Positions 6,042 to 33,921 are shown, counted from the first letter of the stretch. The stretch is 62,580 nt of DNA from a virus (IMGVR_UViG_3300017963_002532:64001-126580), one strand, 5' to 3'. The notes: generated by a model not told the origin, from the letters alone. Translations and numbers: made by a program.

Positions 6042-6631
6042 TAGTTATTTAGGGAATCCGGATCGAGTTTCGGATCGAGGCGAAGCGCCTCCTTGACGAT
6101 TACGATGGTGGGTACGCTGAACATGCGTGAGAGAACACGTTTGCCGAGATGAAGTCGATTGAGGAAACTTGCCTCATCCTTCTTCGGGATTCTGAAGTCG
6201 CGGTACATCTCGCTCTCAGCAACCAGTTGGAAGATCTTTTCACGACGCTTCTCAAGTTGCTTGGACTCAAAGCCCTCGAACTTAGCATTCACGACAGGAG
6301 AATCCGCAATCGTTTTCTCCGGTTTGGCGGGCGCGTCTTCCTGACGAGGAACCGGCATGGTGTTGTCCCTGCCAACTTCCTGTAGGCGTTCGCGGTCAAG
6401 CTGCTTGTCAAGCCGGGCAATAGCACGATTCATATCGCGGATAGTCTCTACCTCAAGTTCGCGCTTAAGGCGACCGATATCGCTCGGCAGCAAGTTCATC
6501 TTATTCTTGAACTCGAACTGAGATGCCTGACGCTTTAGCATCTCCAAAAACCTAATCTTCTGCTTGGTAGAAAGAACCCGTGCCTTTTCACTGGTCACCT
6601 GGGCTCTCTTAGCATCGTCTAAATGACTCAT
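6041..6631 (-). CDS. Hypothetical protein (charged, helical)
   Basis: Intact 196-aa ORF abutting the upstream gene; no recognised motif. Confidence 0.6.
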   Translation of the reverse strand: MSHLDDAKRAQVTSEKARVLSTKQKIRFLEMLKRQASQFEFKNKMNLLPSDIGRLKRELEVETIRDMNRAIARLDKQLDRERLQEVGRDNTMPVPRQEDAPAKPEKTIADSPVVNAKFEGFESKQLEKRREKIFQLVAESEMYRDFRIPKKDEASFLNRLHLGKRVLSRMFSVPTIVIVKEALRLDPKLDPDSLNN

Positions 6632-7749
6632 TACTTATACATCCCTTCAAGTAACTTCCTGTTATCTTTCACCCAGCGGTGAACTTGACGATAACCCTCT
6701 TCGATGGTCACCTTTGGTGTCCATCCGAACTCCTGAGAAACGGCGCTGATATCTGAGATATAGATACAGTGATCCGCCATTCTCTCTTCCTTATTATACG
6801 ATATTTGAAGCCGTTTACGACTGATTTTCTCGACAATCTGAGTGGCTTCTCGTAAAGAAAGAGTAGATCCCGCGCCGCCGCCGACATTGTAAACGGAGCC
6901 GATATACCGCTCCGGATCGGCGCTTAGGGCAATTGCCTGTAAGTGCATTAATGGGCAGAGGTCGTCCGTCCAGAGCACGTCCCGGACCTGTGCGCCCTGC
7001 CATCCGATGTACTCGATCGGGAGTCCCAGGAGCGCCGCGATCATCCACCACGCGACCCATCCCTGCTCCGGCTTGCCCCACTGACACGGTCCCGCGAGGC
7101 AGGAGAACCGGTTCACGATCGCCGGGATACCAAAGGCGTGGGACCACTCCCGCACCAGGATATCCGCAGACGCCTTAGAAGCCCCGTAGATGGACTTCTC
7201 AGCGCCGTTGATGGTCAGGTCAGACGAGTATCCAAGCGCCGGATCGAAGCCCTCTGGAGCCTCATAGCCGTCAGGGAAGGAGATATACGGGTTCTCGTCG
7301 TCGATGAGCGCCTGCCAGTCCCACACCCAACGGTCTCCTTCCAGCTTACGAGGAGCCTCGTTGATCACGTCGGCGCTGTAGACCTTATTCGTGGAGAAGA
7401 AGATCAAGGACTGAGCATTCCCGGCGCGGATATACTCCAGCGTATTCACGACGCCAGCCGTGTTGTTCGTGTAGTCATACTGCGGATTGTTATACCCGTC
7501 AACCGCCGTAGGTTGAGCGGCACAGTCAACGACTACGTTGTACTCACCCGGCAACCGTGCAAAGTCTTCCATACAACGCACGTCGCCATGAAAGAACCTA
7601 ATACCTAGCTTCTTGAACTCTGCTAGATTGTTATGAACACCGTAGCGGGTTAGATTGTCCATCACATGGACGTTGTAACCCTTCTTCACGAAAAAGCGGG
7701 CGATGTTCGACCCGATCGCGCCGCAACCCCCAAGAATGAGAACTCTCAT
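6631..7749 (-). CDS. NDP-sugar epimerase (extended SDR), CDP-paratose 2-epimerase/RfbE-like
   Basis: ILGGCGAIG, DNLTR, FFSTNKVY, YGASK, NRFSCLAGPCQWGKPEQGWVAWW, QVRDVL..DDL. Confidence 0.8.
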   Translation of the reverse strand: MRVLILGGCGAIGSNIARFFVKKGYNVHVMDNLTRYGVHNNLAEFKKLGIRFFHGDVRCMEDFARLPGEYNVVVDCAAQPTAVDGYNNPQYDYTNNTAGVVNTLEYIRAGNAQSLIFFSTNKVYSADVINEAPRKLEGDRWVWDWQALIDDENPYISFPDGYEAPEGFDPALGYSSDLTINGAEKSIYGASKASADILVREWSHAFGIPAIVNRFSCLAGPCQWGKPEQGWVAWWMIAALLGLPIEYIGWQGAQVRDVLWTDDLCPLMHLQAIALSADPERYIGSVYNVGGGAGSTLSLREATQIVEKISRKRLQISYNKEERMADHCIYISDISAVSQEFGWTPKVTIEEGYRQVHRWVKDNRKLLEGMYK

Positions 7750-7759
7750 ACTTCCCCCA

Positions 7760-8920
7760 TTACTTTTTGCACTTGCAACCGCCCTTACAGCGGGGCTTGT
7801 CTTCCAGAATCTTTTTGATCACTGCCACGATATTCTGCGACGGCGTATAGTCGTTGTAGGAGTCGTAGTAGTAATTATCCCATGCGCGGTTCATTGAACG
7901 CAGCGCACCATATAAGGCAACGTCATCCTGAATCCTCATAGTCCACAGAAACGCATTACCGTCGTCCGGATTGTTAGGAATCAGGGTTGTCGGACGCTCT
8001 GTAGAATCCCGTAGGATCAGGCATGGCTTCCGGAAGTAGTGAGACTCCTCAGATGAGGTAGAACCACTGTCGCTGACCACGACGTTACACCCGGCGACGA
8101 GCCGCAAGAAATCCTCCTGTGTCTGTGAGTCGAGAATCTCCACGCTGTCCGGAATGAAGTCGAGCAAACCGTACTTCTCTAGCTCCTTCCGTGTGCGCCC
8201 GTAACAGACGAACTTAGCCTTGCGCCCGCCCTGATAGATCTCGCGCAGTAGGTGAACGAAGTAGGTGAGGTTCTTCTCGTTCATGTTGTTGCCGCGATGG
8301 AACGACACAAGGTCATAGTCGCCCACGGTGGGTTGGATACCCCACTTGGTGACGTAGTAGTCCAGCGCCTCGATGATCGTATTCCCAACCACGTGGATCG
8401 TCTCTGGTAGATGACCCTCGCGGATTAGGTGTGGCACATACTCATGGAGATACACGAACTTGTGGTCCGCGATAGCGTCCATCGCCACCCGGTTGATCTC
8501 CTCCGGCAAGTCGAAGTTCTTATAGGCTGTCTCAAGTTTGCCCGACCGCATCGCGCACTCGATCCTGGCGTACTTGATACCCATGCGCTTCGCAATGAGA
8601 CCACTCAGGCACGGATTCATATCGCCCAGGTTGACGAAGAGGTCCGGCTTGATCTCTGCCAGCAACTCGGGTAGCCGATAGAATAGGCGGCTTAGCTGCT
8701 CATACCAGTTCTCGCCCTTCGCGCCGATGCCGAGGTTGTAGTCCGGCTCGCGCAATCCAAGGTTCTCAATAAACGCACGATCAAGCACGTCCGTATGAGA
8801 ATGCTGACCGCTGTTGATGAAGATACACTCGATATCTCGATCTGCGTCCAGGTTCTCAATCAGCCGCGCCAACCGAGCAAAGTCCGGTCGCCCGGCGGCA
8901 AAGACTACCACCTTCTTCAT
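7760..8920 (-). CDS. wecB: UDP-N-acetylglucosamine 2-epimerase (non-hydrolysing type)
   Basis: GRPDF, SGQH, GDMN, ECAMRS, PEEINR, VVGNTIIEAL, SFHR, VVSDSG, EE, LRDSTERP. Confidence 0.85.
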   Translation of the reverse strand: MKKVVVFAAGRPDFARLARLIENLDADRDIECIFINSGQHSHTDVLDRAFIENLGLREPDYNLGIGAKGENWYEQLSRLFYRLPELLAEIKPDLFVNLGDMNPCLSGLIAKRMGIKYARIECAMRSGKLETAYKNFDLPEEINRVAMDAIADHKFVYLHEYVPHLIREGHLPETIHVVGNTIIEALDYYVTKWGIQPTVGDYDLVSFHRGNNMNEKNLTYFVHLLREIYQGGRKAKFVCYGRTRKELEKYGLLDFIPDSVEILDSQTQEDFLRLVAGCNVVVSDSGSTSSEESHYFRKPCLILRDSTERPTTLIPNNPDDGNAFLWTMRIQDDVALYGALRSMNRAWDNYYYDSYNDYTPSQNIVAVIKKILEDKPRCKGGCKCKK

Positions 8921-9813
8921 GACGTATACCTCTTCTGAACGAGTTCTCGCACCTGATCAATGATGTGCGGAACAGTAAGCTGCATCATATACACCGGATA
9001 CTCTGTCTTCAGAGTCATCCACTTCTCTTGCGGAGCCTTGACAGGCTTAATATCCGCACACACCCGACCGACCCGGGCAAACTCTTTCTTGAATGCCCAT
9101 AGTAGGTTCTCTTTCGAGACCGGAAGAGATGGCATGTGCTGGATACCCGGCTTCCACCAGCCCATCTTCATGATCGTGTAAACGACCTTTGCCCACTGGT
9201 AGGTGGTCATCCCGTTCCAGTGATGATTGACGAAGCCATTGACCTCGCCATCCTGATCGAGATACCACTCAAGAAGCGACCGCTGGGTGTTCATCTCCGG
9301 ACCGACAATGGACGTGCGAATGTTCATCGCCTGCGGACACTCGCCGAGAACCTTTGAGCGCCCGTATACGTCAGTAGCATCCGGTAGGTCGCTTTCCTTA
9401 TACGGCATACGCTTGTCGCCACTGAACACGCAATCAGTGCTGGGGTGGAAAATCTTGCCACCGAACTCACCAGCCATCACGGCTAGCTCGTGCGGGAAGA
9501 TGGAGTTGAGGCGAATGGCATCCGCTACCGAGGCGGGATTCCCCTCATTGATCGTCGGCTTAATCGCACCGATGCAGTTGATGATGTATTCAAACGGACC
9601 GTGTTCCGTGAAGAGGTCGCGCAACTGGTCTTCGTGACCAAGCAGCACGTCCAACACGGCGTGGGTACGCCCGTACATCCGCTTCTGTATACGAGTATCG
9701 GGCTCACGACACGTCCCGACAACCTCGTATTCCGACCCATTATTCAAGTATTGAAATACCTGATGCCCGAGCATCCCCGTAGCACCAAGTACTAGAACCT
9801 TTGGCTTGCTCAT
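8917..9813 (-). CDS. rmlD: dTDP-4-dehydrorhamnose reductase family SDR
   Basis: VLGATGMLG, IINCIG, HPSTDCVFSG, DVYGRSK..GE, IRTSIVG; start placed at ATG 9813 (ATGA overlap). Confidence 0.8.
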   Translation of the reverse strand: MSKPKVLVLGATGMLGHQVFQYLNNGSEYEVVGTCREPDTRIQKRMYGRTHAVLDVLLGHEDQLRDLFTEHGPFEYIINCIGAIKPTINEGNPASVADAIRLNSIFPHELAVMAGEFGGKIFHPSTDCVFSGDKRMPYKESDLPDATDVYGRSKVLGECPQAMNIRTSIVGPEMNTQRSLLEWYLDQDGEVNGFVNHHWNGMTTYQWAKVVYTIMKMGWWKPGIQHMPSLPVSKENLLWAFKKEFARVGRVCADIKPVKAPQEKWMTLKTEYPVYMMQLTVPHIIDQVRELVQKRYTS

Positions 9814-10355
9814 CGTGGTTCTACGCTCCACACGTCGCCGAATAGGTCCGGCGGATATCGGAAGTCGTCGCCCTTACTTTGGTCAAACGTCGAAGACGAA
9901 AGAGAGAGTAATAGACAGTCATCCGTAAGGCTTACCCAGCCATTCGCATAGCCGGGCGGAATGATCAACATCTGCGGCTTACGCTCGGTAAGAACAAACG
10001 CATCCACGTTATTCTCGTCAAACGTATGCTTCTCTGGCTCGTCGCCGATCTGCTCTGTGCCAGTTGCCCGAACCGCGACGAACTTAGCCATCCCACGTAG
10101 TACGACAAAATACTTGGTCTCGTGATTGTGAAAGTGAAAGCCGCGAACCACCCCCTTCTGGCTGTTGTTGATGAAGTAGACACGCTTTACATCATCAAGA
10201 TCAATACCAGCACACGTCTTCGCATTAGCCCCGCTGACACGAAGCCCCTCATACTGATCGTCGTCTCCACGGCTCCAGTCATTCCAAACCGGAGTGAGAA
10301 TACCTCTATCGTCCGTATAAGACGGCAGGTCTCTCAATTCTAGCCTTTTACTCAC
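9810..10355 (-). CDS. Cupin NDP-4-keto-6-deoxyhexose 3,5-epimerase/isomerase (RmlC/FdtA-like)
   Basis: DDRG, RVYFI, VVRGFHFH..ETKYFVVLRG, LIIPPGYANGW; likely GTG start 10355. Confidence 0.75.
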   Translation of the reverse strand: MSKRLELRDLPSYTDDRGILTPVWNDWSRGDDDQYEGLRVSGANAKTCAGIDLDDVKRVYFINNSQKGVVRGFHFHNHETKYFVVLRGMAKFVAVRATGTEQIGDEPEKHTFDENNVDAFVLTERKPQMLIIPPGYANGWVSLTDDCLLLSLSSSTFDQSKGDDFRYPPDLFGDVWSVEPR

Positions 10356-11325
10356 TGAGTTTCTCCTCAATGTTCTTCTTGTTGTTGAAGATCGGGTGCC
10401 GGTGGTTCTTGATCCGGCGCGAAGCTACTGCTGCCGCGATCTCCGCAATAGCGCGTTCCAGCGAGTAATCAAACCCCAGCGGGAAATCACGCTTAAACTT
10501 CTCGGTTGACGCCGCGTAGTCTCGGGCATCCATTCCGTCGCCTTCACGCTCCGTGGTCTTAATCTCGCCAAAGTTCAGAGTCTCCTGGATTGTCTGTGCC
10601 AACTCGTCGATGCGACAGTTGCACTGCGCCACGTTGTAGATGCCGGTCATATCCTTACGCGCAGCGTAGGCAATAATCCGAGCAATGTCTTTCACGTGAA
10701 CGAGCGGGCGCATCTGATCGCCACCATGCACGGTTAGCTCGCCATTGCGCACCATATTGGCGGTCATGATATTGACCACGAGGTCGAAGCGCGGACGAGC
10801 GAACTTGTCACCAAGCCCATAGACGGTGCCAAGACGGAAGATGACGGCGTTCTTATCTTCAAGAAACCTTTCAGCCGCCAGTTTGGTCTTCGCATACTCA
10901 GACAGTGGATTAGTTCCAGCGTCTTCCTTGAGCAGCGTACCACGAGGCGCAGTACCATACACAGAACACGTGCTCATGAAGATGATACGGCGGTCGCCAG
11001 CCACGCTTGCCAGCCACTCTACCGAATCCTGGTTGATCTCTTTCGTCAGCGCCGGGTCAATACTACACGCCGGATCGCCAACCAGAGCCGCCAGCCATAC
11101 GATCGTGTCGAAGTCTTCACCTTCGATCAGCCTCAGTAGCTTATGGCGCTCGCGGATATCTCCATAGTGGAACTGCACGTCCTTGAGATACTGACGCTCG
11201 TAGAGAAGACTATCATACACGTGAATCTCAGTATGAGACGCATCTTTCTGGAAGTTCGCCGCACGTAGGATATCAACCAACGCGCCGCCGATGTAACCCG
11301 CACCCCCAACAATCAGAACCTTCAT
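10348..11325 (-). CDS. NAD-dependent NDP-sugar epimerase/reductase (extended SDR)
   Basis: GGAGYIG, WLAALVGDPAC, MSTCSVYG, YAKTK, RLGTVYG, RFDLVVN, RPLVHVKDIA. Confidence 0.85.
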   Translation of the reverse strand: MKVLIVGGAGYIGGALVDILRAANFQKDASHTEIHVYDSLLYERQYLKDVQFHYGDIRERHKLLRLIEGEDFDTIVWLAALVGDPACSIDPALTKEINQDSVEWLASVAGDRRIIFMSTCSVYGTAPRGTLLKEDAGTNPLSEYAKTKLAAERFLEDKNAVIFRLGTVYGLGDKFARPRFDLVVNIMTANMVRNGELTVHGGDQMRPLVHVKDIARIIAYAARKDMTGIYNVAQCNCRIDELAQTIQETLNFGEIKTTEREGDGMDARDYAASTEKFKRDFPLGFDYSLERAIAEIAAAVASRRIKNHRHPIFNNKKNIEEKLSE

Positions 11326-12054
11326 CTAAACCTCCGTCATATCGTAGCCCAGCCTCCGGGCTAACATTCGTATCTCCGCAGACACCGTATCCGACTGTTC
11401 TCTATTCTCCGGCTTCCTCCATTGTCCAATTCGGTCCGGCGATATCGGACGCTTGTGTGGCACTCCCCAGCCCCCCAAAGTATCCCACACGCGCTTACCA
11501 GCTAGCTCGGCGGAGTCGTGCTTCTGAAACTCCCGATCTACATCTTGTTCTTCATGAAACTTGTCATACCCTTCAATTACCTCCTCATGAAGAAAGTTAG
11601 CGATACGTCTCATTATGATGTCCGTATCAACCACGAGTTCTTCATATTTGATTACGAGAAGGTCGGGGTTGTTTTGATGTAATAGAATCTCGTTTGCCGT
11701 ACGCTCCCACGACTTTGGGTGCCAAAAGTATCTCTGCTCTGCGTGTGGATTATGTGATACCGCAACATCTCGGGGATCGCGGATGGTACAAATAATACGC
11801 TCGCCCCTATCAAAGAGATCTTGGAAACAATAGTTACCCCACTCTTCCCAAAAACCGAACGGCTGTTTCGTAACAACATAACGATCGTTATGAATATGGG
11901 CTAGTTCTAAGAACCTTTCCATATACCGCTCTCTCATCAATGGGTGCATTTCGCTCCTGGTATACACCTTACAGTTGGTGATATACGGCATAAGCATGAG
12001 CAACAGACTTGTGCCACTCCGCGCCGGTCCAGTAACAAAGATATGGTCAGGCAT
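11326..12054 (-). CDS. Sulfotransferase family protein
   Basis: 5'-PSB loop TGPARSGTSLL, 3'-PB motif IRDPRDVAVS, IKYEELV, C-terminal IGQWR. Confidence 0.75.
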   Translation of the reverse strand: MPDHIFVTGPARSGTSLLLMLMPYITNCKVYTRSEMHPLMRERYMERFLELAHIHNDRYVVTKQPFGFWEEWGNYCFQDLFDRGERIICTIRDPRDVAVSHNPHAEQRYFWHPKSWERTANEILLHQNNPDLLVIKYEELVVDTDIIMRRIANFLHEEVIEGYDKFHEEQDVDREFQKHDSAELAGKRVWDTLGGWGVPHKRPISPDRIGQWRKPENREQSDTVSAEIRMLARRLGYDMTEV

Positions 12055-12535: not shown

Positions 12536-12959
12536 CTGAATCACCCTTTGTCTTATATCCTTCTGCTTGCGGACACGACGCCTTGTGACGCCCCTTAAGT
12601 GAACAGCCACATGGACGCTTGTTCAGTTGATCTGCCCGCTCTTTCACTTTCTTCTTGCGCTTCGGGATGTAGAATTTACGCCGCTCTTTAGCGCGTTCCT
12701 TCCTCTCCTTTAGGCGCTCCTCTTTCATCTCCTCAGCAGTCTGAATTTGTAGTCTCTTGTCTGGTCCGTAAGAGGAACACTTCCAACAGATAGCCGCGAC
12801 AGCCTGCTCCCCAATCTCACGTATGCCATCCTTATTCTGCCACTCAGGAAAGAGAGGACGCCAGCACAGCGCGCAGTGGGTTTTCAGCATCGGATCTGGG
12901 TTTTCCAGATCAATCTCAACTGTCTTCCAATACTTATCGATTACGAGAGTCTTCGTCAT
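12528..12959 (-). CDS. Zinc-finger/basic hypothetical protein
   Basis: CALC...CWKC and C-terminal CGC..H..C; Lys/Arg-rich centre. Confidence 0.55.
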   Translation of the reverse strand: MTKTLVIDKYWKTVEIDLENPDPMLKTHCALCWRPLFPEWQNKDGIREIGEQAVAAICWKCSSYGPDKRLQIQTAEEMKEERLKERKERAKERRKFYIPKRKKKVKERADQLNKRPCGCSLKGRHKASCPQAEGYKTKGDSDA

Positions 12960-13578
12960 CACCATCGCCAATCAAAGTGGTGACCAGTGGCACGGTCAAC
13001 TTCGTTCCACGCGGGAGCCTGTGAACATGGCACCCAACGCTACGAGCAGCTTCCACGCCAAGTACGTCAGATTCAATAACCAGTGTCTCGTCAGGAGTCG
13101 TGCGACAATAGTGTAGGGCGACATCATAGCCGAACGCCGCCGGTTTGCCCATCGGAATCTGGTCTGGGGTGATAATATACTGTATACTCGGTAGAACTCC
13201 GCAACAGTCAAGTGCGAACAAAGCTACCTGATAGTCCTTATTCGTGACGCACACAAGGGAGAATCCGTGTTCGCGGATGTACTCCCCCACTAGTATTATG
13301 TCATTATCTGGCTTGATTCTTTCGGTAAAAATATCAAATATGCGCTCGTGGTACATGGCGCGTACTAACTCCAACTGATTCCACCAAATGGCGCCACTCA
13401 GGTTGAGTAGCGCAATCTTGGAATTGAAAGTTAGATTACCGAAGTCACGAATCTGTTCAGTTGGGCTAACGTTGACACCTGTGACGTGTTTCACGGCATA
13501 CTGAAATGCCTCAGCCTCCAAGTGTCTGATATCTACAAAAACCCCATCGAGTGCTCCGACGATAGCTTTTGGTACCAT
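12934..13578 (-). CDS. HAD-fold protein (beta-PGM-like) with degenerate motif I
   Basis: IVGALDGVFVD (nucleophile Asp missing), CVTN, GKP, VIESD; paralogous to 15798-16418. Confidence 0.65.
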   Translation of the reverse strand: MVPKAIVGALDGVFVDIRHLEAEAFQYAVKHVTGVNVSPTEQIRDFGNLTFNSKIALLNLSGAIWWNQLELVRAMYHERIFDIFTERIKPDNDIILVGEYIREHGFSLVCVTNKDYQVALFALDCCGVLPSIQYIITPDQIPMGKPAAFGYDVALHYCRTTPDETLVIESDVLGVEAARSVGCHVHRLPRGTKLTVPLVTTLIGDGDDEDSRNR

Positions 13579-26015: not shown

Positions 26016-26814
26016 CCAACCCCTTCTTCTCAGCCGCCTCGTGGTCATAGCGGTGGATGTAGGGATCTACGTCGTCAGGATAGATATCGTCCAGTGTAAT
26101 ATCCTGCTCGCCCGACAGGGTGAGACGCGCCAGACGACGCGAGTGCTCCGCTGCCCTCTCCTCTTCTTCCTTATTAGAGCCGGTTAGCTGCTTGCCGGGG
26201 TTGTAGCGGAAGCCCATGAGAACAAGGCGCACTAGCTCAAAGTCCCCATACCGCGCCAGCCGGACTGCCATATCGTAGTCTTCACAGATACGACGCCAGT
26301 AGTCGCCAGCCGCACGCTTAGCGTCCATACGGAACATGAATGCCGGACCCTGATCATAACCATTTACCAAGTCCGACGTGGGCTTGAAGTCGTGGATGAC
26401 CGTCTCGATCACGCGATTGTTGACGTCGATATACTGGAAGTCCGCATACACCATCGCAACCTTTTTGGGCGAATGGTCGAGAGCCTTCACGAGACACGAC
26501 AGGAAGTTCGGGTAGTAGATATTATCACCCGATACCATCGTGCCATAATCGAAGCCACCCTTCTCAAACGCGGCGTCGAACCCCGTGTTGAGAGCACCAC
26601 CCGTGCCCTTGTTCTCTTGGCATAGGACGGTAATCTTCTCTGGATGGCGAGACTCCCACTCTTTCATGATGGGTAGGAGATTGCCCTCCGCGCCATCACT
26701 CACGGCGAAGATATGAAAGTTGTCGTACTCCTGGCTAATCAGGCTACGCATCATCATATGAATCCACCGCTCGCTGCGGTAGAACGGAAGGACTACTGCT
26801 ACGCGTCCACCCAT
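26005..26814 (-). CDS. GT2-family glycosyltransferase (pair, copy 2)
   Basis: LPFY, FAVSDGA, QENKGTGGALNTGF, MVSGDN, YWRRICEDY. Confidence 0.85.
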   Translation of the reverse strand: MGGRVAVVLPFYRSERWIHMMMRSLISQEYDNFHIFAVSDGAEGNLLPIMKEWESRHPEKITVLCQENKGTGGALNTGFDAAFEKGGFDYGTMVSGDNIYYPNFLSCLVKALDHSPKKVAMVYADFQYIDVNNRVIETVIHDFKPTSDLVNGYDQGPAFMFRMDAKRAAGDYWRRICEDYDMAVRLARYGDFELVRLVLMGFRYNPGKQLTGSNKEEEERAAEHSRRLARLTLSGEQDITLDDIYPDDVDPYIHRYDHEAAEKKGLDDV

Positions 26815-27359
26815 TATAGTACTCCCTTATCGGTCAGGTCCGAGATCACATCCTTGATCAGACCAATTGACTCGTCGTCGTCATTAGAGACCTTAATCAA
26901 TAGATCAAAACCATCTTCTACCTGTCGTGGAGGATTAGACTCCAACAACTCGTAATATTCAACTACCTTATCGTCCGGCTGCGACTCCTTGCGGCGCTTG
27001 TTCCGGCGCAGGCACGTGTTCAGATCCGCGTCAACAAAGAAGCCTACGACGCGGAAGTCGTCTACCGGCTTTCCGTGCGACCACGCCTTCACAACCCGAC
27101 ACGCCTCTTGACGTACGCGCTGCACCCGCGAACTCGTGTCTAAGACGTAAGAGATCCCTGTCTTCACACACTTGTATTGCTGTGCTACCGCATGAGCCCA
27201 ATTCTCGCACGCACGCTCCCACGAATAGGGCTCGCCCCTCTCCCAATAATCATCCGGGTTGATATAGTGCAAACCGAATTGTTGCGCCAGCAGCTTGGCG
27301 ACGGTGGTCTTGCCCGATCCCATTGCGCCGATCATGATGATCGCCGTGTGTTTTCTCAT
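26814..27359 (-). CDS. P-loop kinase (AAA_33/polynucleotide kinase-like)
   Basis: MIGAMGSGKT, INPDD, YVLDTS, CLRRNKRR lid. Confidence 0.75.
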   Translation of the reverse strand: MRKHTAIIMIGAMGSGKTTVAKLLAQQFGLHYINPDDYWERGEPYSWERACENWAHAVAQQYKCVKTGISYVLDTSSRVQRVRQEACRVVKAWSHGKPVDDFRVVGFFVDADLNTCLRRNKRRKESQPDDKVVEYYELLESNPPRQVEDGFDLLIKVSNDDDESIGLIKDVISDLTDKGVL

Positions 27360-27583
27360 AGTTCCCCCACTAGGTCGGAAGACTCGTCTGTCCCGTGTAG
27401 TCGTAGTTCCTTATCACAGCACGCCGAGGCATACTCAGGGTTATCTATGATGTATAGAAAGAACCCGCAATGGTTGGACCATAGAATCTCAACCACCTTC
27501 GCCGGTCCTACCCACTGCTGAATCGAGGGGTCAATGTAGTCTACCTCGTCGCCTATTTGAAACGCCTGTTCCACCTGTGGCAT
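27356..27583 (-). CDS. Small hypothetical protein (KOW/SH3-like start)
   Basis: FQIGDEV..AKVVEI; fills the gap between flanking genes with coupled start/stop. Confidence 0.45.
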   Translation of the reverse strand: MPQVEQAFQIGDEVDYIDPSIQQWVGPAKVVEILWSNHCGFFLYIIDNPEYASACCDKELRLHGTDESSDLVGEL

Positions 27584-28392
27584 TATGACTCGCCTTTACA
27601 TCTGTGTAGGGTGAAAGAGTTGGATAGTAATAGAGATGGAATCCCCTGCTGCTCGCCGCGATCGAAATACTCTACGTCGCCAGTCAAGCCGCCGGGACCC
27701 ACGTGATTCCAAAGAGCACCCAGGCGCTCGTAGGTATCGCGGCGCTGAATCCAGCTAGCGCCGACCGTGTGGAACATCCAGCCCCGAGTTGCGTGCCTGA
27801 ACGGCAGGGCATACTCGTCGTTAGTGAGTAGTCGGTCGGCAGAGATCGCCTGACAGAACGTATCGAACTTACCCCAATCGGGCTTATACATATCGTCCCA
27901 CCAACCGATGGGCATGATGTGACGCGAGCATGGCGCTCCATACGCCGCCTTAGATCCGTCCCACGACTCCATCGTATACAGGTGGTAGAATGCCGTCTGC
28001 TCGAAGTTGCCTTCGTCGTCAAGATTCTCATAAGGAAGAATCAACTTCATGGCGTCGCCGATAAAGCCACGACTGAAGATCTGGTCCGAGCCCGACCTGA
28101 ATACATACGTCGCCTGGGACATTTCGTATCCCAGGTTGAAGCAGTTGTAGAGGTTGAACACGAAGTGATGATGCGGATGCCCCTTGAACTCATGTTCCGC
28201 CGCCCTATAGATCACGTAGCGGATGCCGTGGTCTTCAGCATACTGGATGATGTCCGGCTCCGGGTCCCATAGAACGAGGTTGATTTCCATATTGTCGTAG
28301 CCCGCCCGATCCCGGACACACCTTACCCATTGATCGAGCAACTTTACGTTGCGTCCAATAACCGTGTAACAGGATACGAGCGGGTTGTTCAT
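27583..28392 (-). CDS. Probable GT-A glycosyltransferase
   Basis: LVSCYTVI, YVFRSGSDQIFS, GDVEYFDR, LHRC. Confidence 0.55.
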   Translation of the reverse strand: MNNPLVSCYTVIGRNVKLLDQWVRCVRDRAGYDNMEINLVLWDPEPDIIQYAEDHGIRYVIYRAAEHEFKGHPHHHFVFNLYNCFNLGYEMSQATYVFRSGSDQIFSRGFIGDAMKLILPYENLDDEGNFEQTAFYHLYTMESWDGSKAAYGAPCSRHIMPIGWWDDMYKPDWGKFDTFCQAISADRLLTNDEYALPFRHATRGWMFHTVGASWIQRRDTYERLGALWNHVGPGGLTGDVEYFDRGEQQGIPSLLLSNSFTLHRCKGES

Positions 28393-28653: not shown

Positions 28654-29748
28654 CTATTCCCTCCAAGCCTGCCCTACCTGGTTACCCCATTCGTCGCGCT
28701 GTCCTGTGATTGTCATCACCCAAATTTGCGGGACCTTAGCCAAACAGTATGGCTGAGTATTGTCCCACTCGTCAAATTGTTTATCATGATAGAATGGATC
28801 ATGCCATCCATTAATAACCTTTAGAATATACGGCGCATCCTCGTCAAGTTGCGCGTGCATGAGTGCGTGTAGCCCTTGAGGAAAGACGCCGGTATAGCGA
28901 GCGATCGTAGTCAAATCCTCAGTATGGTTGAGATACTGCTCAGTCTTCTCTAGGTGAGACTCCACGCCCCTGTCTCCGTGCTTGGCTAACTCTTCCTCAT
29001 AGAACTTTGCCTTCGCCTTTTGCTCTTCTGGATCTTTGATGAAACCCAGGTGCCAGATATACATATCGTTCAGCACGAAACGATACGGCTGCACAGAGTC
29101 ATCGAAGTAACTACAGAACGCATTCGGATAGGACATCACGGGGTGAGCCCGGTAGTGCATTCCCTTGTAGTACTTAATGATTCGCTGGTGCTGAGGCTGA
29201 TGCTCCGGGTCCGCCTTCTTGATGTGCATCATATCCCGGTAGAAGTGGAGGAACAGCGGGACGAACTCGCGGGCTTGCGGGTAGATGTCGATCAACTCAC
29301 GCAGCCGGTGGATATCCTCGGGGCGGTAGAACTCATCAACGTCGTTTATGATCATCCAGTCGCCCTCATCGAGAAACCGTAGGAACGTGTTCTTGATCTC
29401 TTCCAGGTCCACAAATGGGCGGTCCTGCTGAATCAACTCCACCTTATCGTCGGGATCATTGTGCTCGATGAACTCAAGGATCTTCTCCACGGTGGCGTCA
29501 ACAGAGTGACCGTCTTCCGTGCGATTCGGACGAGCAATCGTCGCCCCCTCGATGACAAGGATCTTATCCACGGCGTCGTAGATCGACCCCATCGTGTACT
29601 GGATCAAGTGTTCTTCATTATGAGCCTGAATACACTGCACCAGCTTGGGGCGCATCTCTAACTCGTCCAGAATATGGTAAGAAGCCTTACTCTGCTCCTC
29701 TTCCTTAGCCTTCTGCTCTTCTGGAGTGAGTTCCTTTTCTTCACTCAT
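28654..29748 (-). CDS. GT2-like glycosyltransferase
   Basis: IQAHNEE, VIEG, WMIINDVDEFY, IWHLGF. Confidence 0.7.
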   Translation of the reverse strand: MSEEKELTPEEQKAKEEEQSKASYHILDELEMRPKLVQCIQAHNEEHLIQYTMGSIYDAVDKILVIEGATIARPNRTEDGHSVDATVEKILEFIEHNDPDDKVELIQQDRPFVDLEEIKNTFLRFLDEGDWMIINDVDEFYRPEDIHRLRELIDIYPQAREFVPLFLHFYRDMMHIKKADPEHQPQHQRIIKYYKGMHYRAHPVMSYPNAFCSYFDDSVQPYRFVLNDMYIWHLGFIKDPEEQKAKAKFYEEELAKHGDRGVESHLEKTEQYLNHTEDLTTIARYTGVFPQGLHALMHAQLDEDAPYILKVINGWHDPFYHDKQFDEWDNTQPYCLAKVPQIWVMTITGQRDEWGNQVGQAWRE

Positions 29749-30721
29749 ATGAACTTTCCTTAATCAGCTTCTCCCAACTCTCCTTGAACGCCTTCCTGCT
29801 GAAGTGCTGCTCCACAACCTTGCGGGAGGCAGAGCCGATCTTCTTCAACTGGTCAGGCGTTAGCTTGGATAGTCGGGCGGCTAGCTCGTTTGCGTCATTC
29901 ACGAAGATCATCGAGTTATCGTCGAATAGCTTCGTCAATGTAGGATTACGAACGGAAATCACGGGTAGACCGCGACCTGCTGCTTGTAACACAAGAAGCG
30001 GCAGGGGATCTGCCTCGTGGATGTTGATGAAGCCCGTGTGCCTCTCAAGTAGGGAGGCTTCCTCGACCTCCTGGGTTTCGTAATAGAGACAGCCGTTCCA
30101 GCCACGAACCTCGATCGGGAGATCCTTGCGGTCCCGGATATCCTTCCATAGCTCGGTCGGATTGAGGTCGATGTGATTGTACCACAGCAGCCACTTACTA
30201 CTCTTCGGTTTATACTTGCGATGCACCGCCGGAGCCCACTCCGGGATCACCACGCTGTCTTCATCTGTGTAGCCCCATGCCTCTTGTGCCTGGGCTGTCT
30301 TGAAGACAACGACGTCTACCTTCTCGTCCAGATCCTTCTTGAAACCCTCGATGTTATACTCGGGCTTCGGGAGGAAGTGCTCGACGTAGATCAGTGGGAA
30401 ACCCAGCGACTCTGCTACCATATGTAGCCTCTCAACATGCTGGTATCTATCATGCGCGATGGCAGCGTCAATATACCGATCGATTCCACGGATATCCATC
30501 AGAGCCTTCATGTTAGCTCGGTCGTTGGCATAGCGAGGATCGTAGTAGTATTGCAAGCCCGGGATCATCGGAGCCCAATGGAAGAAGTCCGCCTGCATCC
30601 CGTCTGCCATCATGAGTTGATACCGCTGGTTCCCATCCATCGTGAGAATGGATGGTCTCTCTTCACGCACGTTGGCTGTATTCACAATCCAAAAGATCTG
30701 TGCGCCGGAATCAGTACTCAT
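29741..30721 (-). CDS. GT-B glycosyltransferase (divergent)
   Basis: FINIHEADPLPLLVLQAAGRGLPVIS, SRKVVEQHFSRKAFKESW; likely start ATG 30721. Confidence 0.6.
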   Translation of the reverse strand: MSTDSGAQIFWIVNTANVREERPSILTMDGNQRYQLMMADGMQADFFHWAPMIPGLQYYYDPRYANDRANMKALMDIRGIDRYIDAAIAHDRYQHVERLHMVAESLGFPLIYVEHFLPKPEYNIEGFKKDLDEKVDVVVFKTAQAQEAWGYTDEDSVVIPEWAPAVHRKYKPKSSKWLLWYNHIDLNPTELWKDIRDRKDLPIEVRGWNGCLYYETQEVEEASLLERHTGFINIHEADPLPLLVLQAAGRGLPVISVRNPTLTKLFDDNSMIFVNDANELAARLSKLTPDQLKKIGSASRKVVEQHFSRKAFKESWEKLIKESSYE

Positions 30722-30725
30722 CCAC

Positions 30726-31856
30726 TTACTCCTTGAGTAGAGATTCAAGAATCTCTTTGAACATCGGTCCCACGTGCTCGTGGTCGAATCGGTCCAGCCC
30801 CGTCACCTTGCGCAGCTTACCCTCCTTGTGGTCTTCATAGGCAAGGCGCATCTGCTCGATCATAGAGTTCACAGACGGCTCCGCCCATTGCTCCTGGCTG
30901 GTGAAGAGATACGGAAGCGGGTGACGCATATCGTATACGGGCTCGATACTATGACGAACCTCGTAAATCTCGTCCCGCTTCAAGTATGCCTCGGGTCCAC
31001 CCCACAGAGGAGAGACGATGCCGTTGCCGAATGCCGCCGCCTCGAAGAGCGGGATTCCCCACCCCTCGCCGTTGCTTGCGTTGACGTAGACGTCCGCCGT
31101 CGCGTGAATACGATCGACCTGCTCCCGGCTGAGGATCTGTGAGATGACTACGAGCGGAGGACACTTGGGATACCTCATGCCATCGTTGACGTCATTCACA
31201 AAACTCATGATCTGCTCTTCCTCATTGGAGCGGGTCATCTGGTTAAAGTAACCCTTGAGGATAAGCAATACCTTTTCGCCGTCCTGGAACGCACCCGCGT
31301 ATGCACGCAGTAGCTTGTCGATCCCCTTCTTCTTCGAGATCTGCGAGACGTTGTAGAAGATGAGGGGCTTCTCGTCGTCGGTCAGCTTCTCACCGGCAAT
31401 ATCGTCAATGAGTTCGACCTCGCGGGAATACCTCTCCATCTCGAACGTATGTGGCACAACAAACACGGGCTTGTCGCAACCACCCTTCTTGATAGCCTCT
31501 GCGCTCATAGGGCAGAACGTAACCACCGCGTCCATACGGTTGAGAGACTCAGCCCATGCCTGGGGAATCTTGTCCGTCTCGGTAGCAATCATACCCACGT
31601 ACTTCGCCCGCTTGTCACCGTCCCGCACCGCCATCTCATTCGGAGTTAAGTGCTGGATGATGATATCAACATTGTCGGGCGAGCGCGTGAACAGCTTCCG
31701 CTCCCACGGCTCTAGCTGATGCTCGTGTCCGTCGTCGTACTTGACGTTACGAAGAACGAGGTCCACGCCAACCTTATTGAGCGCGGCAACGTAGTCCCGG
31801 GCTGCTGTAGAATAACCAGAGAAGCCCAGGTATGGACTAATGTATAGGACTTTCAC
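30726..31856 (-). CDS. GT4-family glycosyltransferase
   Basis: SGYSTAAR, ETDKIP, KKGIDKLLRAY, DVYVNASNGEGWGIPLFEAAAFG. Confidence 0.85.
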   Translation of the reverse strand: MKVLYISPYLGFSGYSTAARDYVAALNKVGVDLVLRNVKYDDGHEHQLEPWERKLFTRSPDNVDIIIQHLTPNEMAVRDGDKRAKYVGMIATETDKIPQAWAESLNRMDAVVTFCPMSAEAIKKGGCDKPVFVVPHTFEMERYSREVELIDDIAGEKLTDDEKPLIFYNVSQISKKKGIDKLLRAYAGAFQDGEKVLLILKGYFNQMTRSNEEEQIMSFVNDVNDGMRYPKCPPLVVISQILSREQVDRIHATADVYVNASNGEGWGIPLFEAAAFGNGIVSPLWGGPEAYLKRDEIYEVRHSIEPVYDMRHPLPYLFTSQEQWAEPSVNSMIEQMRLAYEDHKEGKLRKVTGLDRFDHEHVGPMFKEILESLLKE

Positions 31857-32047
31857 TTCTCTTCCTCTTCCTTTTTCTCTAACATTTTCTTCCAGGCTCT
31901 TTCTGGCACAGCACTCATAAACTTGTCTTCATCGGTGAGCAGAGATGTAGGAAGACTATGTTGAAATACATCAAAGCCGCCGTGGTGGTTCTTGAATATA
32001 CAAGTATGACCTGAATCAGATATCAGATTACCATCGACCCACTTCAT
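31853..32047 (-). CDS. Small hypothetical protein
   Basis: 64-aa ORF with RBS and GTGA overlap with the next gene. Confidence 0.45.
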   Translation of the reverse strand: MKWVDGNLISDSGHTCIFKNHHGGFDVFQHSLPTSLLTDEDKFMSAVPERAWKKMLEKKEEEEK

Positions 32048-32055
32048 GTTAGCCC

Positions 32056-33921
32056 TTACGACTTAATGATCATTGCCTGCACGCCGTCCTTCTTCTTCTC
32101 ATCAGCCTCCACGGTCTCACCACGGAAACGCTTCTGAGCCTCATTCAGACGCTTGGCAACCTCGTACTCTTGCATCCCTTGTTCAATGAAGAACTTGTAG
32201 ATGCCGTCGATCGTGTTCCTACCCTGTTGGAGAGTGGCGAGCCAGAACTGCTTACCCTGCTCGTCCACCGCACGCTTCAGGATATACTGATAGCACCAGT
32301 CGATGAACTCGGGGGCATTCATACCCGGCGGGGGCGGGTCCATACCCGGCTTGACCGGATTCTGCTCGGCTTCCCAACCCTCAGAGCGCGGCTTCTCGTC
32401 GATGTTGTCGAAGACGAACATCCAACGATCTACCATATCGCCCTCGGTGTAGTTGTCCATAACGCACTTACGCGCATCTTCACCCATCTGCTCGCGTAGC
32501 TCGTCGTTGCAGAGTAGCTCCTGCATCTTCTCAGCGCAGTCATTAATATCTGGTAGAGCACGCTTCTGAGAAGTCTCCGGCTCGTAATACCAACGGTCTA
32601 CCTCGATCGGCATTCCACCCAGGTGGACGGTGTATTCGTCCTTGTTGATATACGGGAAGTTCGGGATGCGCACCTTCTCCGTTAGGGCGGAGTAGTCCAG
32701 TGCCAGCACCGGGACGCCGCAAGCCTTCGCCTCGATGGGCGGGATTCCCTCACCCTCGGCGATTGAAAGCTGGACGTAGAGGTCGGCACAGTTGTAGATC
32801 TGCGCGAGAATATCACGACTCACACCACCATGAGTGTTCGGGCAAGACGCGGTGTGGCGTCCGCACTTCGCACACTGCACGCTGATCGTCTTGTTGCCGT
32901 TGATGGTCTCGACCGGCTTGTTAGCCAGCGCAACAGCCGGAGCGACAAAGATGTGATTGCACGCACGACACATGAACGTGTTGTACACGAATGCATGTAG
33001 GTCATGGCACGTATGCTCAACGCCGTAGTAGCCCTTCGAGATGCGCTCGATGTGCTTGGGATAGTTGTAGGACTGAGCGTTGTCAGGATAGCTCGTATGC
33101 AACCAGAGGATAGCCTTATCCACCCTGGCGTTGCCACGATATTTGTTCTTCATCTGCGCAAAGGCGTCGATCAGATCCGGGAACAGCTTACGCGCCTGAT
33201 TACGCATGGTGCTGAGGATCACGCCGCGATCTTCGATGCGGTCGTTGAAGACCTGATTGCCAACGATGACCGGCGTGTTGGAGCGAACCTGTAGCCACTC
33301 GCGCTTGAGTTCTTCCTTGTCCGCCCCCATAGGACGGAACGTGTCCACGTCGATCGGGGTGCGAAGTGGAACCTTGTGGAGACGAGACCGCTGCTTGCCC
33401 AGGACCGTGCTGTTACGAGCGAGAGTATCGATACCGAAATCGGTATAGCTCATCACGTAGTCGCACGACTCGTAGGTCTTGATCCAGTCTTCGTCCTGCG
33501 GGCAGGAGTCTACTGTCGGCATCCACAGCCACTTGAAGCAGCCGCGATACGGAGACCGCTTAATCCACTGGTCCATCCAGTGGTCCCTGTTGCAGACGAC
33601 AAAGTCCGGCTGGAAGTCGAGAACTACCTCGTCAAACTTCCAAGCGCCGAACTGGTTAATCAACTGCCCCTTGTCTTCCGGGAACGGGGAGGGGGTCATG
33701 TAGACGCGCTTCTCTTCCTCGTTCGTCGGCATACAGAAGTACTGCTTCCAGGGATTGGTATGACGACGCGGATCATTAGCATATCCATAGCTGCCGAACT
33801 CAGCGATCTCATACTTTCCTGTCGCGTACAGCCCCTTTAGCAACCGCTGATTGTATGTTGAGAAACCAGTAGCGAGAAAAGATGACTCGCTTACAATCAA
33901 TATTCTTTTTTTACGTTCCAT
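32056..33921 (-). CDS. GT4-family glycosyltransferase with zinc-ribbon insertion and C-terminal DUF4214-like helical domain
   Basis: TGFSTY, RNQARK, CRAC..CAKC, DLYVQLSIAEGEGIPPIEAKACG; C-terminal FIDWCYQYILKRAVDEQGKQFW. Confidence 0.8.
   Translation of the reverse strand: MERKKRILIVSESSFLATGFSTYNQRLLKGLYATGKYEIAEFGSYGYANDPRRHTNPWKQYFCMPTNEEEKRVYMTPSPFPEDKGQLINQFGAWKFDEVVLDFQPDFVVCNRDHWMDQWIKRSPYRGCFKWLWMPTVDSCPQDEDWIKTYESCDYVMSYTDFGIDTLARNSTVLGKQRSRLHKVPLRTPIDVDTFRPMGADKEELKREWLQVRSNTPVIVGNQVFNDRIEDRGVILSTMRNQARKLFPDLIDAFAQMKNKYRGNARVDKAILWLHTSYPDNAQSYNYPKHIERISKGYYGVEHTCHDLHAFVYNTFMCRACNHIFVAPAVALANKPVETINGNKTISVQCAKCGRHTASCPNTHGGVSRDILAQIYNCADLYVQLSIAEGEGIPPIEAKACGVPVLALDYSALTEKVRIPNFPYINKDEYTVHLGGMPIEVDRWYYEPETSQKRALPDINDCAEKMQELLCNDELREQMGEDARKCVMDNYTEGDMVDRWMFVFDNIDEKPRSEGWEAEQNPVKPGMDPPPPGMNAPEFIDWCYQYILKRAVDEQGKQFWLATLQQGRNTIDGIYKFFIEQGMQEYEVAKRLNEAQKRFRGETVEADEKKKDGVQAMIIKS

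What the first reader, a model, noticed from the sequence alone, without database searches (positions are those of the whole stretch)
6631..33921. A ~27-kb all-cytoplasmic glycan-building island in a tailed phage
Seen: about 12-13 glycosyltransferases (GT2-like, GT4-like, GT32-like), WecB, RmlC/RmlD-like enzymes, two SDR epimerases, a PMP dehydratase-like enzyme, a nucleotidyltransferase, a sulfotransferase, two methyltransferase-fold proteins and HAD phosphatases. Not seen: Wzx/Wzy, GtrA/GtrB, an undecaprenyl-phosphate initiating transferase or any polytopic membrane GT, which argues against classic host serotype conversion. Also not seen: a dCMP/dUMP hydroxymethylase or TET, which argues against T4-style DNA glucosylation being the main job. 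Established: chloroviruses and mimiviruses build their own capsid/fibril glycans, and some mycobacteriophages glycosylate virion proteins with a few GTs. Inference: giant-virus-scale autonomous virion glycosylation in a bacteriophage.
Basis: partly seen in the sequence, partly recalled or inferred. Interest (0 to 1): 0.8.

Follow-up and report, generated by a model that had tools for sequence, protein, structure and literature searches.

The report
Phage sugar-building island, soluble enzymes only
An uncultured ~170-kb tailed phage carries about 14 soluble sugar-adding enzymes plus the enzymes that make unusual activated sugars, built around a three-enzyme core shared by a whole phage clade; phage DNA is an unlikely target and virion proteins are the best guess, but the target is unproven.

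Summary
Window 6631-33921 holds 12 Pfam-supported glycosyltransferases (GTs), one more GT-A by ESM Atlas and one probable. It also holds WecB, three SDRs, a cupin, a ColD-like PMP 3-dehydratase (catalytic Lys replaced by His), a nucleotidyltransferase, a sulfotransferase, a methyltransferase and HADs. A GDP-mannose 4,6-dehydratase and another GT2 lie just outside the window.

I rebuilt the missing 43 kb to give a 169.6-kb genome with terminase and tape measure. No frame anywhere has more than 3 hydrophobic segments, and there is no PglC/WbaP-type transferase or ABC transporter.

DNA glycosylation is unlikely. The single ThyA is canonical (L143, D169, N177), there is no TET/JBP, TGT or C5-methylase, and restriction sites are strongly avoided (GGCC 0 seen, 638 expected).

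Three enzymes (621-aa GT4, 376-aa GT4, 364-aa GT-A) are core genes of a large uncultured phage clade, and some homologs carry inteins. Relatives have 4-7 GTs in about 4-9 kb, so this phage has a lineage-specific expansion with tandem paralogs. The closest solved folds are a chlorovirus GT and peptide S-glycosyltransferase SunS.

Virion glycosylation is the best reading (about 0.4) but unproven; host-surface remodelling through host carriers is not excluded. P-SSM2's 24 'LPS genes' are a precedent in scale. The scan noted a look-alike cassette on another genome (e1-5436536).

The parts
32056..33921 (-). Core GT 'GT621': GT4/GT-B enzyme with an invariant Cys4 insert and a C-terminal DUF4214 domain
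   Evidence: Pfam Glycos_transf_1 and DUF4214. More than 120 full-length homologs, all on contigs of 183 kb or less, and 55 IMG/VR loci. Invariant C318/C321/C350/C353 and E389...E397. AF2 model pLDDT 85; best PDB match 3OY2, Z 29.6, rmsd 2.6 over 376 aa. Homologs carry inteins.
30726..31856 (-). Core GT 'GT376': GT4/GT-B
   Evidence: Pfam Glycos_transf_1. Homolog found next to GT621 in 49 of 57 relatives' loci.
29741..30748 (-). GT-B enzyme, CgeB-like (Glyco_trans_1_2); present only in the nearer relatives
   Evidence: Pfam. Best-hit homolog in 5 loci only.
28654..29748 (-). Core GT-A 'p364'
   Evidence: Weak Pfam GT2/GT92 hits. Homolog in 44 of 57 loci at 38-52% identity. AF2 model pLDDT 85. 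Nearest folds are SunS/ThuS peptide S-glycosyltransferases (Foldseek E 2e-10; VIA Z 14.7 over 231 aa) and WrtF (Z 14.8). The homolog in L015 carries an intein.
27583..28392 (-). GT-A fold protein with no Pfam hit
   Evidence: ESM Atlas features 0.98 to viral GT2 clusters; structure TM 0.70-0.75 to GT2 clusters.
26814..27359 (-). P-loop kinase (AAA_33/dNK/SKI/zeta-like); role in glycan or RNA repair unresolved
   Evidence: Pfam. Conserved after p364 in L015.
24824..26814 (-). GT2 paralog pair (24824-25660 and 26005-26814) with a small HAD-like ORF between them (25599-26048)
   Evidence: Pfam. The pair is 51% identical. A DxDGT motif is seen in the translation of the small ORF.
20148..24824 (-). 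GT2 paralog trio (20148-20972, 21568-22332, 24063-24824), a GT32-like gene (23209-24063), a weak GT2 (22337-23212) and an unknown ORF (20969-21571)
   Evidence: Pfam. The trio is 51-58% identical.
19040..19573 (-). HNH-AP2 homing endonuclease inserted in the island
   Evidence: Pfam HNH_3 and AP2. A paralog lies at genome 29991-30668.
18151..19167 (-). GT4-like GT-B enzyme
   Evidence: Pfam Glyco_trans_1_4.
17058..18176 (-). DegT-family, ColD/E1-like PMP-dependent 3-dehydratase
   Evidence: Pfam DegT (189 bits). The best PDB match is GDP-perosamine synthase, but its catalytic Lys (motif FGNK) aligns with His here (SSH).
12934..17061 (-). Donor-making cassette: unknown 231-aa ORF, HAD, Methyltransf_24, NTP-transferase, probable GT-A (13588-14439), HAD paralog
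   Evidence: Pfam. HAD pair 31% identical. Atlas lead for 13588-14439. A look-alike cassette was noted on another genome.
11326..12054 (-). Sulfotransferase
   Evidence: Pfam Sulfotransfer_1, 41.9 bits.
6631..11325 (-). Nucleotide-sugar tailoring run: SDR, RmlC/FdtA-like cupin, RmlD-like, WecB, 4,6-dehydratase-like SDR
   Evidence: Pfam and NCBIfam. The SDR-cupin-RmlD trio recurs in relative L064.
35508..35523 (-). Promoter-like motif GCCATAATN3TATRG heading the block p172-SSB-HNH-island
   Evidence: Three exact matches in the window (6005, 35508, 46301) against 0.09 expected; aligned. No further copy in the record or the missing piece.

Best explanation
This is a phage-autonomous, fully cytoplasmic glycan assembly line in two layers.

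Layer 1 is a conserved core: GT621 (GT4 with a Cys4 insert and DUF4214), GT376 (GT4) and p364 (GT-A). It sits right after SSB in the replication-type transcription block and is shared by a whole clade of uncultured ~165-183-kb tailed phages. I infer that it starts and builds the inner glycan on an acceptor that is the same across the clade, most likely a phage-encoded protein of the virion.

Layer 2 is a lineage-specific expansion of about 20 kb. It supplies unusual donors and about ten further GTs, several of them tandem paralogs, that elaborate a complex outer glycan, probably methylated and sulfated. The predicted donors are a GDP-3,6-dideoxyhexose made by Gmd plus the ColD-like dehydratase, 6-deoxyhexoses, a ManNAc-type sugar made by WecB, and an NDP-sugar from the HAD/nucleotidyltransferase cassette.

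Shown here: gene content, solubility, absence of export and base-hydroxylating genes, core-versus-accessory structure. Inferred: the acceptor and the sugar identities.
For: - Gene content.
- No membrane or export component in the complete 169.6-kb genome, nor in 57 relatives' loci.
- The core is conserved like replication genes: GT621 in 55, GT376 in 49 and p364 in 44 of 57 loci.
- The acceptor-side N-domain of GT621 is the best conserved part (0.73 majority fraction, 46 invariant residues), in phages whose GC ranges from 36 to 55%. This argues for an invariant, probably phage-encoded acceptor.
- Inteins sit in GT621 and p364 homologs.
- The nearest ESM Atlas clusters of GT621 are 95-100% viral.
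- Best solved folds: chlorovirus NY-2A B736L (3OY2), a GT discussed as a capsid-glycan enzyme (PMC4691112), and the peptide glycosyltransferases SunS/ThuS.
- Ser-Gly pairs are 2.1-fold over expectation in structural proteins (154 seen, 73.7 expected) but not in non-structural ones (115 seen, 109 expected).
- DNA is an unlikely target.
Against: - No result places the glycan on virions.
- Head and tail proteins lack the Ser/Thr-rich C-terminal tails seen on glycosylated mycobacteriophage subunits.
- Ser-Gly enrichment could simply reflect turns in beta-rich fibre proteins.
- The fold matches are fold-level only (12-16% identity). For p364 they are tied with WrtF and close to TarS/TarP, which act on glycan or teichoic-acid acceptors.
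- The island is transcribed with SSB under the replication-type motif, not with the structural genes.
- Soluble GTs could equally act on host lipid-linked intermediates.
Confidence: 0.4

Rival explanations
1. Host-surface remodelling. The soluble phage GTs and donor enzymes act in the cytoplasm on host undecaprenyl-linked O-antigen, capsule or teichoic-acid intermediates, and the host's own initiating transferase, flippase, polymerase or ABC exporter does the rest. This would change the infected cell's surface, for example to exclude superinfecting phages or prevent progeny re-adsorption.
For: [quoted passage not shown]
- Structural neighbours of p364 include TarS/TarP (Z 13.6-13.8), and those of GT621 include WaaG, PimA/B, PglA and TarM.
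- The accessory sugar genes are shuffled among relatives like O-antigen loci.
- Early or middle-type transcription with SSB.
- The sugars predicted (colitose-like 3,6-dideoxyhexose, ManNAc, 6-deoxyhexoses) are typical O-antigen sugars.
Against: - A host-specific lipid-linked acceptor fits poorly with a core whose acceptor-side domain is highly conserved across phages of 36-55% GC.
- GT621's nearest protein clusters are almost purely viral.
- Not one of 57 relatives' loci or the whole genome brings any membrane component.
- The core behaves as an essential, intein-invaded gene set rather than an accessory moron.
Confidence: 0.27
2. Another cytoplasmic acceptor. The core GTs glycosylate a non-virion phage protein, a host protein, or a small molecule or soluble polymer, as BshA, MshA, sucrose-phosphate synthase and methylmannose-polysaccharide enzymes do. 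Different parts of the island may serve different targets.
For: - Top structural neighbours of GT621 after 3OY2 are soluble-acceptor GT4 enzymes: SPS, BshA, the MMP mannosyltransferase and GlgM.
- No sequence feature ties the system to virions.
- A kinase and a small HAD inside the island may belong to the phage's RNA-repair set instead.
Against: 4-7 GTs in every relative and about 14 here imply an oligo- or polysaccharide, not a single regulatory sugar. The donor diversity and sulfation resemble exposed surface glycans.
Confidence: 0.2
3. DNA hypermodification. The GTs decorate phage DNA bases with sugars, as in T4, RB69/DLP3 or RL38JI.
For: - The island lies between replication genes and nucleotide-metabolism genes.
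- A ThyA-family gene sits directly beside a GT2 and a methyltransferase just outside the window.
- A dNMP kinase is present.
- Poly-glycosylated bases and phage-encoded NDP-sugar synthesis are now known (PMC13326640).
Against: - The only ThyA-family gene passes NCBIfam equivalog cut-offs for thymidylate synthase (468 bits against a cut-off of 327). It keeps L143, D169 and N177, the residues that are changed in hydroxymethylases and 5hodCMP synthases (criteria from PMC13326640).
- No TET/JBP, TGT or C5-methylase.
- Restriction-site avoidance is extreme: GGCC 0 seen against 638 expected, CTCGAG 0 against 63, AGCGCT 0 against 46. CTCGAG is missing in nearly all relatives. This is not expected for DNA shielded by bulky adducts.
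Confidence: 0.05

Closest known systems
Autonomous glycosylation of chloroviruses and mimiviruses (PBCV-1 Vp54 glycans; NY-2A B736L, PDB 3OY2)
   Same: Virus-encoded soluble GTs together with virus-encoded nucleotide-sugar enzymes, including GDP-mannose 4,6-dehydratase, and no membrane machinery. GT621's best solved structural neighbour is B736L (Z 29.6). Some nearby Atlas clusters are from Nucleocytoviricota.
   Different: This is a bacteriophage with a prokaryotic host. Sequence identity to B736L is only 14%. GT621 adds a Cys4 insert and a DUF4214 domain. Attachment to the capsid is not shown here.
Mycobacteriophage virion O-glycosylation (Che8 and Corndog; Freeman et al. 2023, cited in PMC12619734)
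   Same: Tailed phage with its own GTs; a proposed virion protein target.
   Different: Those phages use a few GTs and host donors, and carry Ser/Thr-rich C-terminal tails on capsid and tail-tube subunits. Here there are about 14 GTs plus donor synthesis, and no such tails.
Cyanomyovirus P-SSM2 'LPS' gene clusters (24 genes; PMC1079782)
   Same: [quoted passage not shown]
   Different: P-SSM2 is a T4-like cyanophage, and its clusters are absent from the related P-SSM4. Here a three-GT core is clade-wide, carries inteins, and is embedded in the replication-type block. This phage is unrelated: TerL is about 25% identical to Bacillus siphophage terminases, and GT621 has no match in 50,697 GenBank phage records.
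Phage DNA glycosylation (T4 alpha/beta-GT; RB69/DLP3 arabinosyl-5hoC; RL38JI; PMC13326640)
   Same: Cytoplasmic GTs; phage-encoded NDP-sugar synthesis; genes located near nucleotide-metabolism genes.
   Different: The base-activating enzyme is missing (canonical ThyA, no TET/JBP), and the genome avoids restriction sites strongly.
Serotype conversion and teichoic-acid glycosylation by temperate phages (Gtr systems; TarP)
   Same: Phage GTs that alter host surface glycans. TarP shows that a soluble GT-A enzyme suffices.
   Different: No GtrA/GtrB-type membrane proteins. The gene number is far larger. The genes sit in a large genome dominated by replication and nucleotide-metabolism genes.

Membership tests
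Giant-virus-type autonomous virion glycosylation | Virus-encoded soluble GTs, no membrane or export machinery | tested here: met
   No ORF with more than 3 hydrophobic segments in the 169.6-kb genome; no Bac_transf or ABC transporter.
Giant-virus-type autonomous virion glycosylation | Virus-encoded nucleotide-sugar synthesis (for example GMD) | tested here: met
   Gmd (387 bits), ColD-like dehydratase, WecB, SDRs and an NTP-transferase.
Giant-virus-type autonomous virion glycosylation | Glycan chemically shown on the capsid or fibril proteins | not testable with these tools
   Needs virions. The phage is uncultured and has no GenBank relative.
Giant-virus-type autonomous virion glycosylation | GTs homologous to the giant-virus GTs | tested here: inconclusive
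   3OY2 is the top match in Foldseek and VIA (Z 29.6 against 26.9 for the next), but at 14% identity within the common GT4 fold.
Mycobacteriophage virion O-glycosylation | Ser/Thr-rich C-terminal extensions on capsid and tail-tube subunits | tested here: not met
   No head or tail-module protein has such a tail; the maximum S+T in any 30-aa window is 0.33.
Mycobacteriophage virion O-glycosylation | Phage-encoded GTs | tested here: met
Phage DNA glycosylation (T4 / RB69 / TET routes) | ThyA homolog with N177D, L143D/E or D169N | tested here: not met
   There is a single ThyA-family gene. Its motifs MALPPCH and QRSCDVFLGVPFNIAS keep L143, D169 and N177, and it passes the equivalog cut-offs.
Phage DNA glycosylation (T4 / RB69 / TET routes) | C5-methylase plus TET/JBP dioxygenase | tested here: not met
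   PF12851 and PF00145 are absent from the record, and neither is listed for the missing 43 kb.
Phage DNA glycosylation (T4 / RB69 / TET routes) | DNA shielded from restriction, so no need for site avoidance | tested here: not met
   GGCC 0 seen against 638 expected (z -33); many 6-bp palindromes occur 0-4 times against 45-68 expected. The link from avoidance to unshielded DNA is an inference.
Wzy/ABC-dependent or Gtr-type host glycan modification | Phage-encoded initiating transferase, flippase, polymerase, exporter or GtrA/B | tested here: not met
   Use of the host's own machinery is not excluded.
P-SSM2-type 'LPS' gene cluster | [quoted passage not shown] | tested here: met
   compared with PMC1079782.
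P-SSM2-type 'LPS' gene cluster | T4-like cyanomyovirus backbone | tested here: not met
   The polymerase is DnaE-type. TerL is about 25% identical to Bacillus siphophage terminases. PHROGs recognises none of the tail proteins.

The most novel reading that the evidence does not exclude
A whole clade of uncultured ~170-kb phages runs its own cytoplasmic protein-glycosylation system. A three-enzyme core, essential enough to host inteins, primes virion proteins. Individual lineages such as this one have expanded it to giant-virus scale, with about 14 GTs and home-made dideoxy, methylated and sulfated sugars, giving virions a complex and variable glycan coat.
Probability: 0.35. Interest if true: 0.8.

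Novelty: new variant of a known kind. Interest (0 to 1): 0.62.

Why it matters
If the acceptor is the virion, this would be the largest self-contained glycosylation system known in a bacteriophage. It would extend 'autonomous viral glycosylation' from giant eukaryotic viruses to phages, with consequences for adsorption, defence evasion and virion stability.

Whatever the target, three points stand. The three-GT core is a new hallmark of a widespread uncultured phage clade. Inteins in glycosyltransferases are unusual. The core-plus-variable-periphery layout gives a compact system that can be expressed to find out what such phage GT clusters do, a question open since the P-SSM2 'LPS genes' of 2005.

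Tried and rejected
- PHROGs on ten tail-region proteins gave one unnamed hit only.
- The search for related loci with single proteins (GT621, DnaE) found nothing; an alignment query was needed.
- The genome search could not open the JGI contig behind L009, so I walked it with the look-up of encoding contigs instead. The look-up of P0008 failed.
- Host inference from Gmd failed: homologs sit at about 50% identity across many phyla. There are no tRNAs.
- phmmer against PDB for four unknown island ORFs gave nothing.
- Literature searches on DUF4214 and S-CBWM1 were uninformative.
- TibC/Aah heptosyltransferases and the T4 alpha/beta-glucosyltransferases were not among the 50 best structural neighbours of GT621. 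That is not an exclusion.
- Complex prediction was not run. An enzyme-substrate pair is a poor case for it, and I had no single well-founded acceptor candidate.
- Chimeric contig or host island was rejected: composition is uniform, the same order appears in independent assemblies, and the core is shared with 55 viral contigs.

Full report
**What the window is**

The window is the second half of an IMG/VR viral record of 126,580 bp that CheckV rates 75% complete. The DnaE homolog P0001 led to a 169,698-bp JGI contig of the same phage. Walking that contig with exact-protein look-ups recovered the missing 42,974 bp. Record plus missing piece comes to 169,554 bp, and the record runs across the JGI contig's ends, which fits a circular or circularly permuted genome.

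The missing part holds small early genes, a sigma70_r2 factor, a large terminase, a probable portal, head and tail genes and a 1261-aa PhageMin_Tail tape measure. The window ends inside the tape measure gene. It is therefore a tailed phage.

It has no cultured relatives. TerL is about 25% identical to Bacillus siphophage terminases. PHROGs does not recognise the tail proteins.

**Checking the observation**

Every gene in the window is on the minus strand, and GC and skew are even throughout.

- There are 12 Pfam-supported GTs: four GT-B/GT4-like, seven GT2-like and one GT32-like.
- 27583-28392 is a 13th, GT-A by Atlas features and structure. 13588-14439 is a probable 14th.
- p364 (28654-29748) has only weak Pfam hits, but its model is a clear GT-A fold.
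- The DegT-family protein aligns best with GDP-perosamine synthase, yet has His where the catalytic Lys sits. That is the signature of the ColD/E1 PMP-dependent 3-dehydratases (established knowledge of that family).
- A GDP-mannose 4,6-dehydratase lies 8 kb outside the window. Together with the ColD-like enzyme it predicts a GDP-3,6-dideoxyhexose of the colitose type.
- WecB, three SDRs, a cupin, a sulfotransferase, a nucleotidyltransferase, Methyltransf_24 and two HADs are confirmed.
- An HNH-AP2 homing endonuclease interrupts the island.
- A further GT2 and Methyltransf_24 sit next to ThyA outside the window.

**The 'not seen' claims, tested genome-wide**

A hydropathy scan of all six frames of the full 169.6 kb finds no ORF with more than three hydrophobic segments. 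Bac_transf (PglC/WbaP-type) is absent, and ABC_tran gives only sub-threshold P-loop matches. Across 57 relatives' loci, about 20 kb each around the core GT, no ORF has more than four such segments. Those with four are short ORFs, mostly on the opposite strand.

**DNA as target**

The genome has one ThyA-family gene.

- It passes NCBIfam equivalog cut-offs for thymidylate synthase and scores 391 bits to E. coli ThyA.
- It keeps L143, D169 and N177. PMC13326640 identifies these positions as changed in dCMP hydroxymethylases (N177D, L143D/E) and 5hodCMP synthases (D169N).
- TET/JBP, TGT and C5-methylase are absent.
- Independently, the genome avoids restriction sites to an extreme degree. GGCC occurs 0 times against 638 expected (z -33). 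CTCGAG, AGCGCT, CCGCGG, TCGCGA and GTCGAC occur 0-1 times against 45-68 expected. Random 6-mers average z -0.08.
- CTCGAG is also missing from nearly all relatives' loci.

I infer that the DNA is exposed to restriction enzymes and is not shielded by bulky sugars.

**Comparative anatomy**

GT621 has more than 120 full-length homologs at 38-68% identity, all on contigs of 183 kb or less, and 55 loci in IMG/VR. It has none in 50,697 GenBank phage records. The alignment shows an invariant Cys4 insert and the EX7E motif. The acceptor-side N-domain is the most conserved region.

In relatives the gene order is DnaE, small ORF, sigma-like or SSB, GT621, GT376, p364. Then come 1-4 further GTs and a ~230-aa unknown, then GMP reductase, which begins 3.9-8.7 kb after GT621. 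In this phage that distance is 32.9 kb.

The extra genes are found in at most one other locus each. L064 shares the SDR-cupin-RmlD trio, and L065 has a Gmd and a B12-radical-SAM enzyme. Inside the island there is a GT2 trio (51-58% identical), a GT2 pair (51%) and a HAD pair (31%), which indicates expansion by duplication.

GT621 homologs in at least seven clusters carry inteins, as does the p364 homolog in L015. This marks them as conserved, important genes.

**Transcription context**

The motif GCCATAATN3TATRG occurs exactly three times in the window against 0.09 expected, and nowhere else in the genome. It heads three blocks: replication (from 46.3 kb), p172-SSB-HNH plus the whole island (from 35.5 kb), and recombination/nucleotide metabolism (from 6.0 kb). 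Within the part of the island that was scanned (5.0-24.9 kb), promoter- and terminator-like sites do not exceed chance. The island is therefore probably one long unit, co-expressed with replication functions.

**Structures**

The GT621 model (pLDDT 85) matches the chlorovirus NY-2A putative GT B736L best in both Foldseek (E 6e-16, TMt 0.81) and VIA-align (Z 29.6, rmsd 2.6 over 376 aa). Soluble-acceptor and lipid-acceptor GT4 enzymes follow at Z 24-27. B736L binds GDP-mannose best and has been proposed to add a GDP-sugar to the capsid glycan (PMC4691112).

p364 matches the peptide S-glycosyltransferases SunS/ThuS best in Foldseek. In VIA it is tied with WrtF, and TarS/TarP follow closely. GT621's nearest Atlas clusters are 95-100% viral, mostly Uroviricota with some Nucleocytoviricota. 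These are fold-level resemblances and do not prove function.

**The target**

For virion proteins:
- The acceptor appears conserved across phages of very different GC.
- The GT family is virus-specific.
- The fold neighbours are a virus GT and peptide GTs.
- Ser-Gly pairs show a 2.1-fold excess that is confined to structural proteins. It is strongest in the 1360-aa Laminin_G_3 protein, with 40 seen against 13.2 expected.

Against:
- There is no direct evidence.
- There are no Ser/Thr-rich C-terminal tails of the mycobacteriophage kind.
- Ser-Gly may be structural.
- Soluble GTs can serve host lipid-linked pathways.

My odds are: virion proteins about 0.4, host-surface remodelling about 0.27, another cytoplasmic acceptor about 0.2, DNA about 0.05.

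**Novelty**

Large sugar-gene clusters in lytic phages have been known since P-SSM2, with 24 genes (PMC1079782). Virion glycosylation is known in mycobacteriophages, and autonomous glycosylation in giant viruses. New here are:
- the clade-wide three-GT core carrying inteins;
- the size and donor autonomy of this lineage's expansion;
- the genome-wide demonstration that no membrane or base-activating partner exists;
- the restriction-avoidance argument against a DNA target.

I class it as a new variant of a known kind.

Noticed in passing
Relatives: L015:15446-18514 and L015:21618-23984; proteins P0122, P0123, P0127, P0134, P0170, P0190, P0203: Inteins (Hom_end, LAGLIDADG, Intein_splicing or Hint domains) interrupt homologs of the GT4 enzyme GT621, and in L015 also the GT-A p364. 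DnaE carries inteins in the same phages. In this phage a free-standing HNH gene (window 33911-34585) sits directly upstream of GT621 instead.
   Followed up: partly
Whole genome (window 1-62580 plus L002-L005, L009, L012, L013): Extreme palindrome avoidance: GGCC 0 seen against 638 expected, CTCGAG 0 against 63, AGCGCT 0 against 46, CCGCGG 1 against 68. CTCGAG is absent from almost all 57 relatives' loci. GGCC is also absent in L015 and L065. This points to hosts rich in these restriction systems.
   Followed up: partly
window 6005-6020, 35508-35523, 46301-46316 (minus strand): The motif GCCATAATN3TATRG, with a conserved GAAA about 17 nt upstream, occurs exactly three times in the 169.6-kb genome, each time at the head of a non-structural gene block. 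The phage encodes its own sigma70_r2 factor (L012:10492-11100).
   Followed up: partly
L003:4480-5610, L003:6101-7417, L004:4587-5702, L004:8191-9372; window 26814-27359 and 25599-26048: An unusually rich nucleic-acid repair set: RtcB, two RNA ligases of different families, an ATP-dependent DNA ligase, and a split PNK-like kinase and HAD phosphatase lying inside the glycan island. This suggests a counter-defence against tRNA or RNA nucleases.
   Followed up: no
L012:7333-7464 (= L013:17020-17151): A 43-aa ORF with a weak Acb2_Tad1_hairpin Pfam hit in the early region, a possible anti-CBASS or anti-Thoeris sponge fragment.
   Followed up: no
L003:630-4180: An AAA_5 (MoxR/CobS-like) ATPase followed by a 702-aa DUF2201_N protein, a CobS/CobT-like pair as seen in some large phages.
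   Followed up: no
L065:17922-19493: A relative's glycan module contains a B12-binding radical SAM enzyme next to a Gmd homolog, so other lineages tailor their sugars differently.
   Followed up: no
window 52948-57030 and 57766-58557: Tail-tip proteins with Laminin_G_3 (ConA-like lectin) and PKD domains. The 1360-aa protein has 40 Ser-Gly pairs against 13.2 expected.
   Followed up: partly
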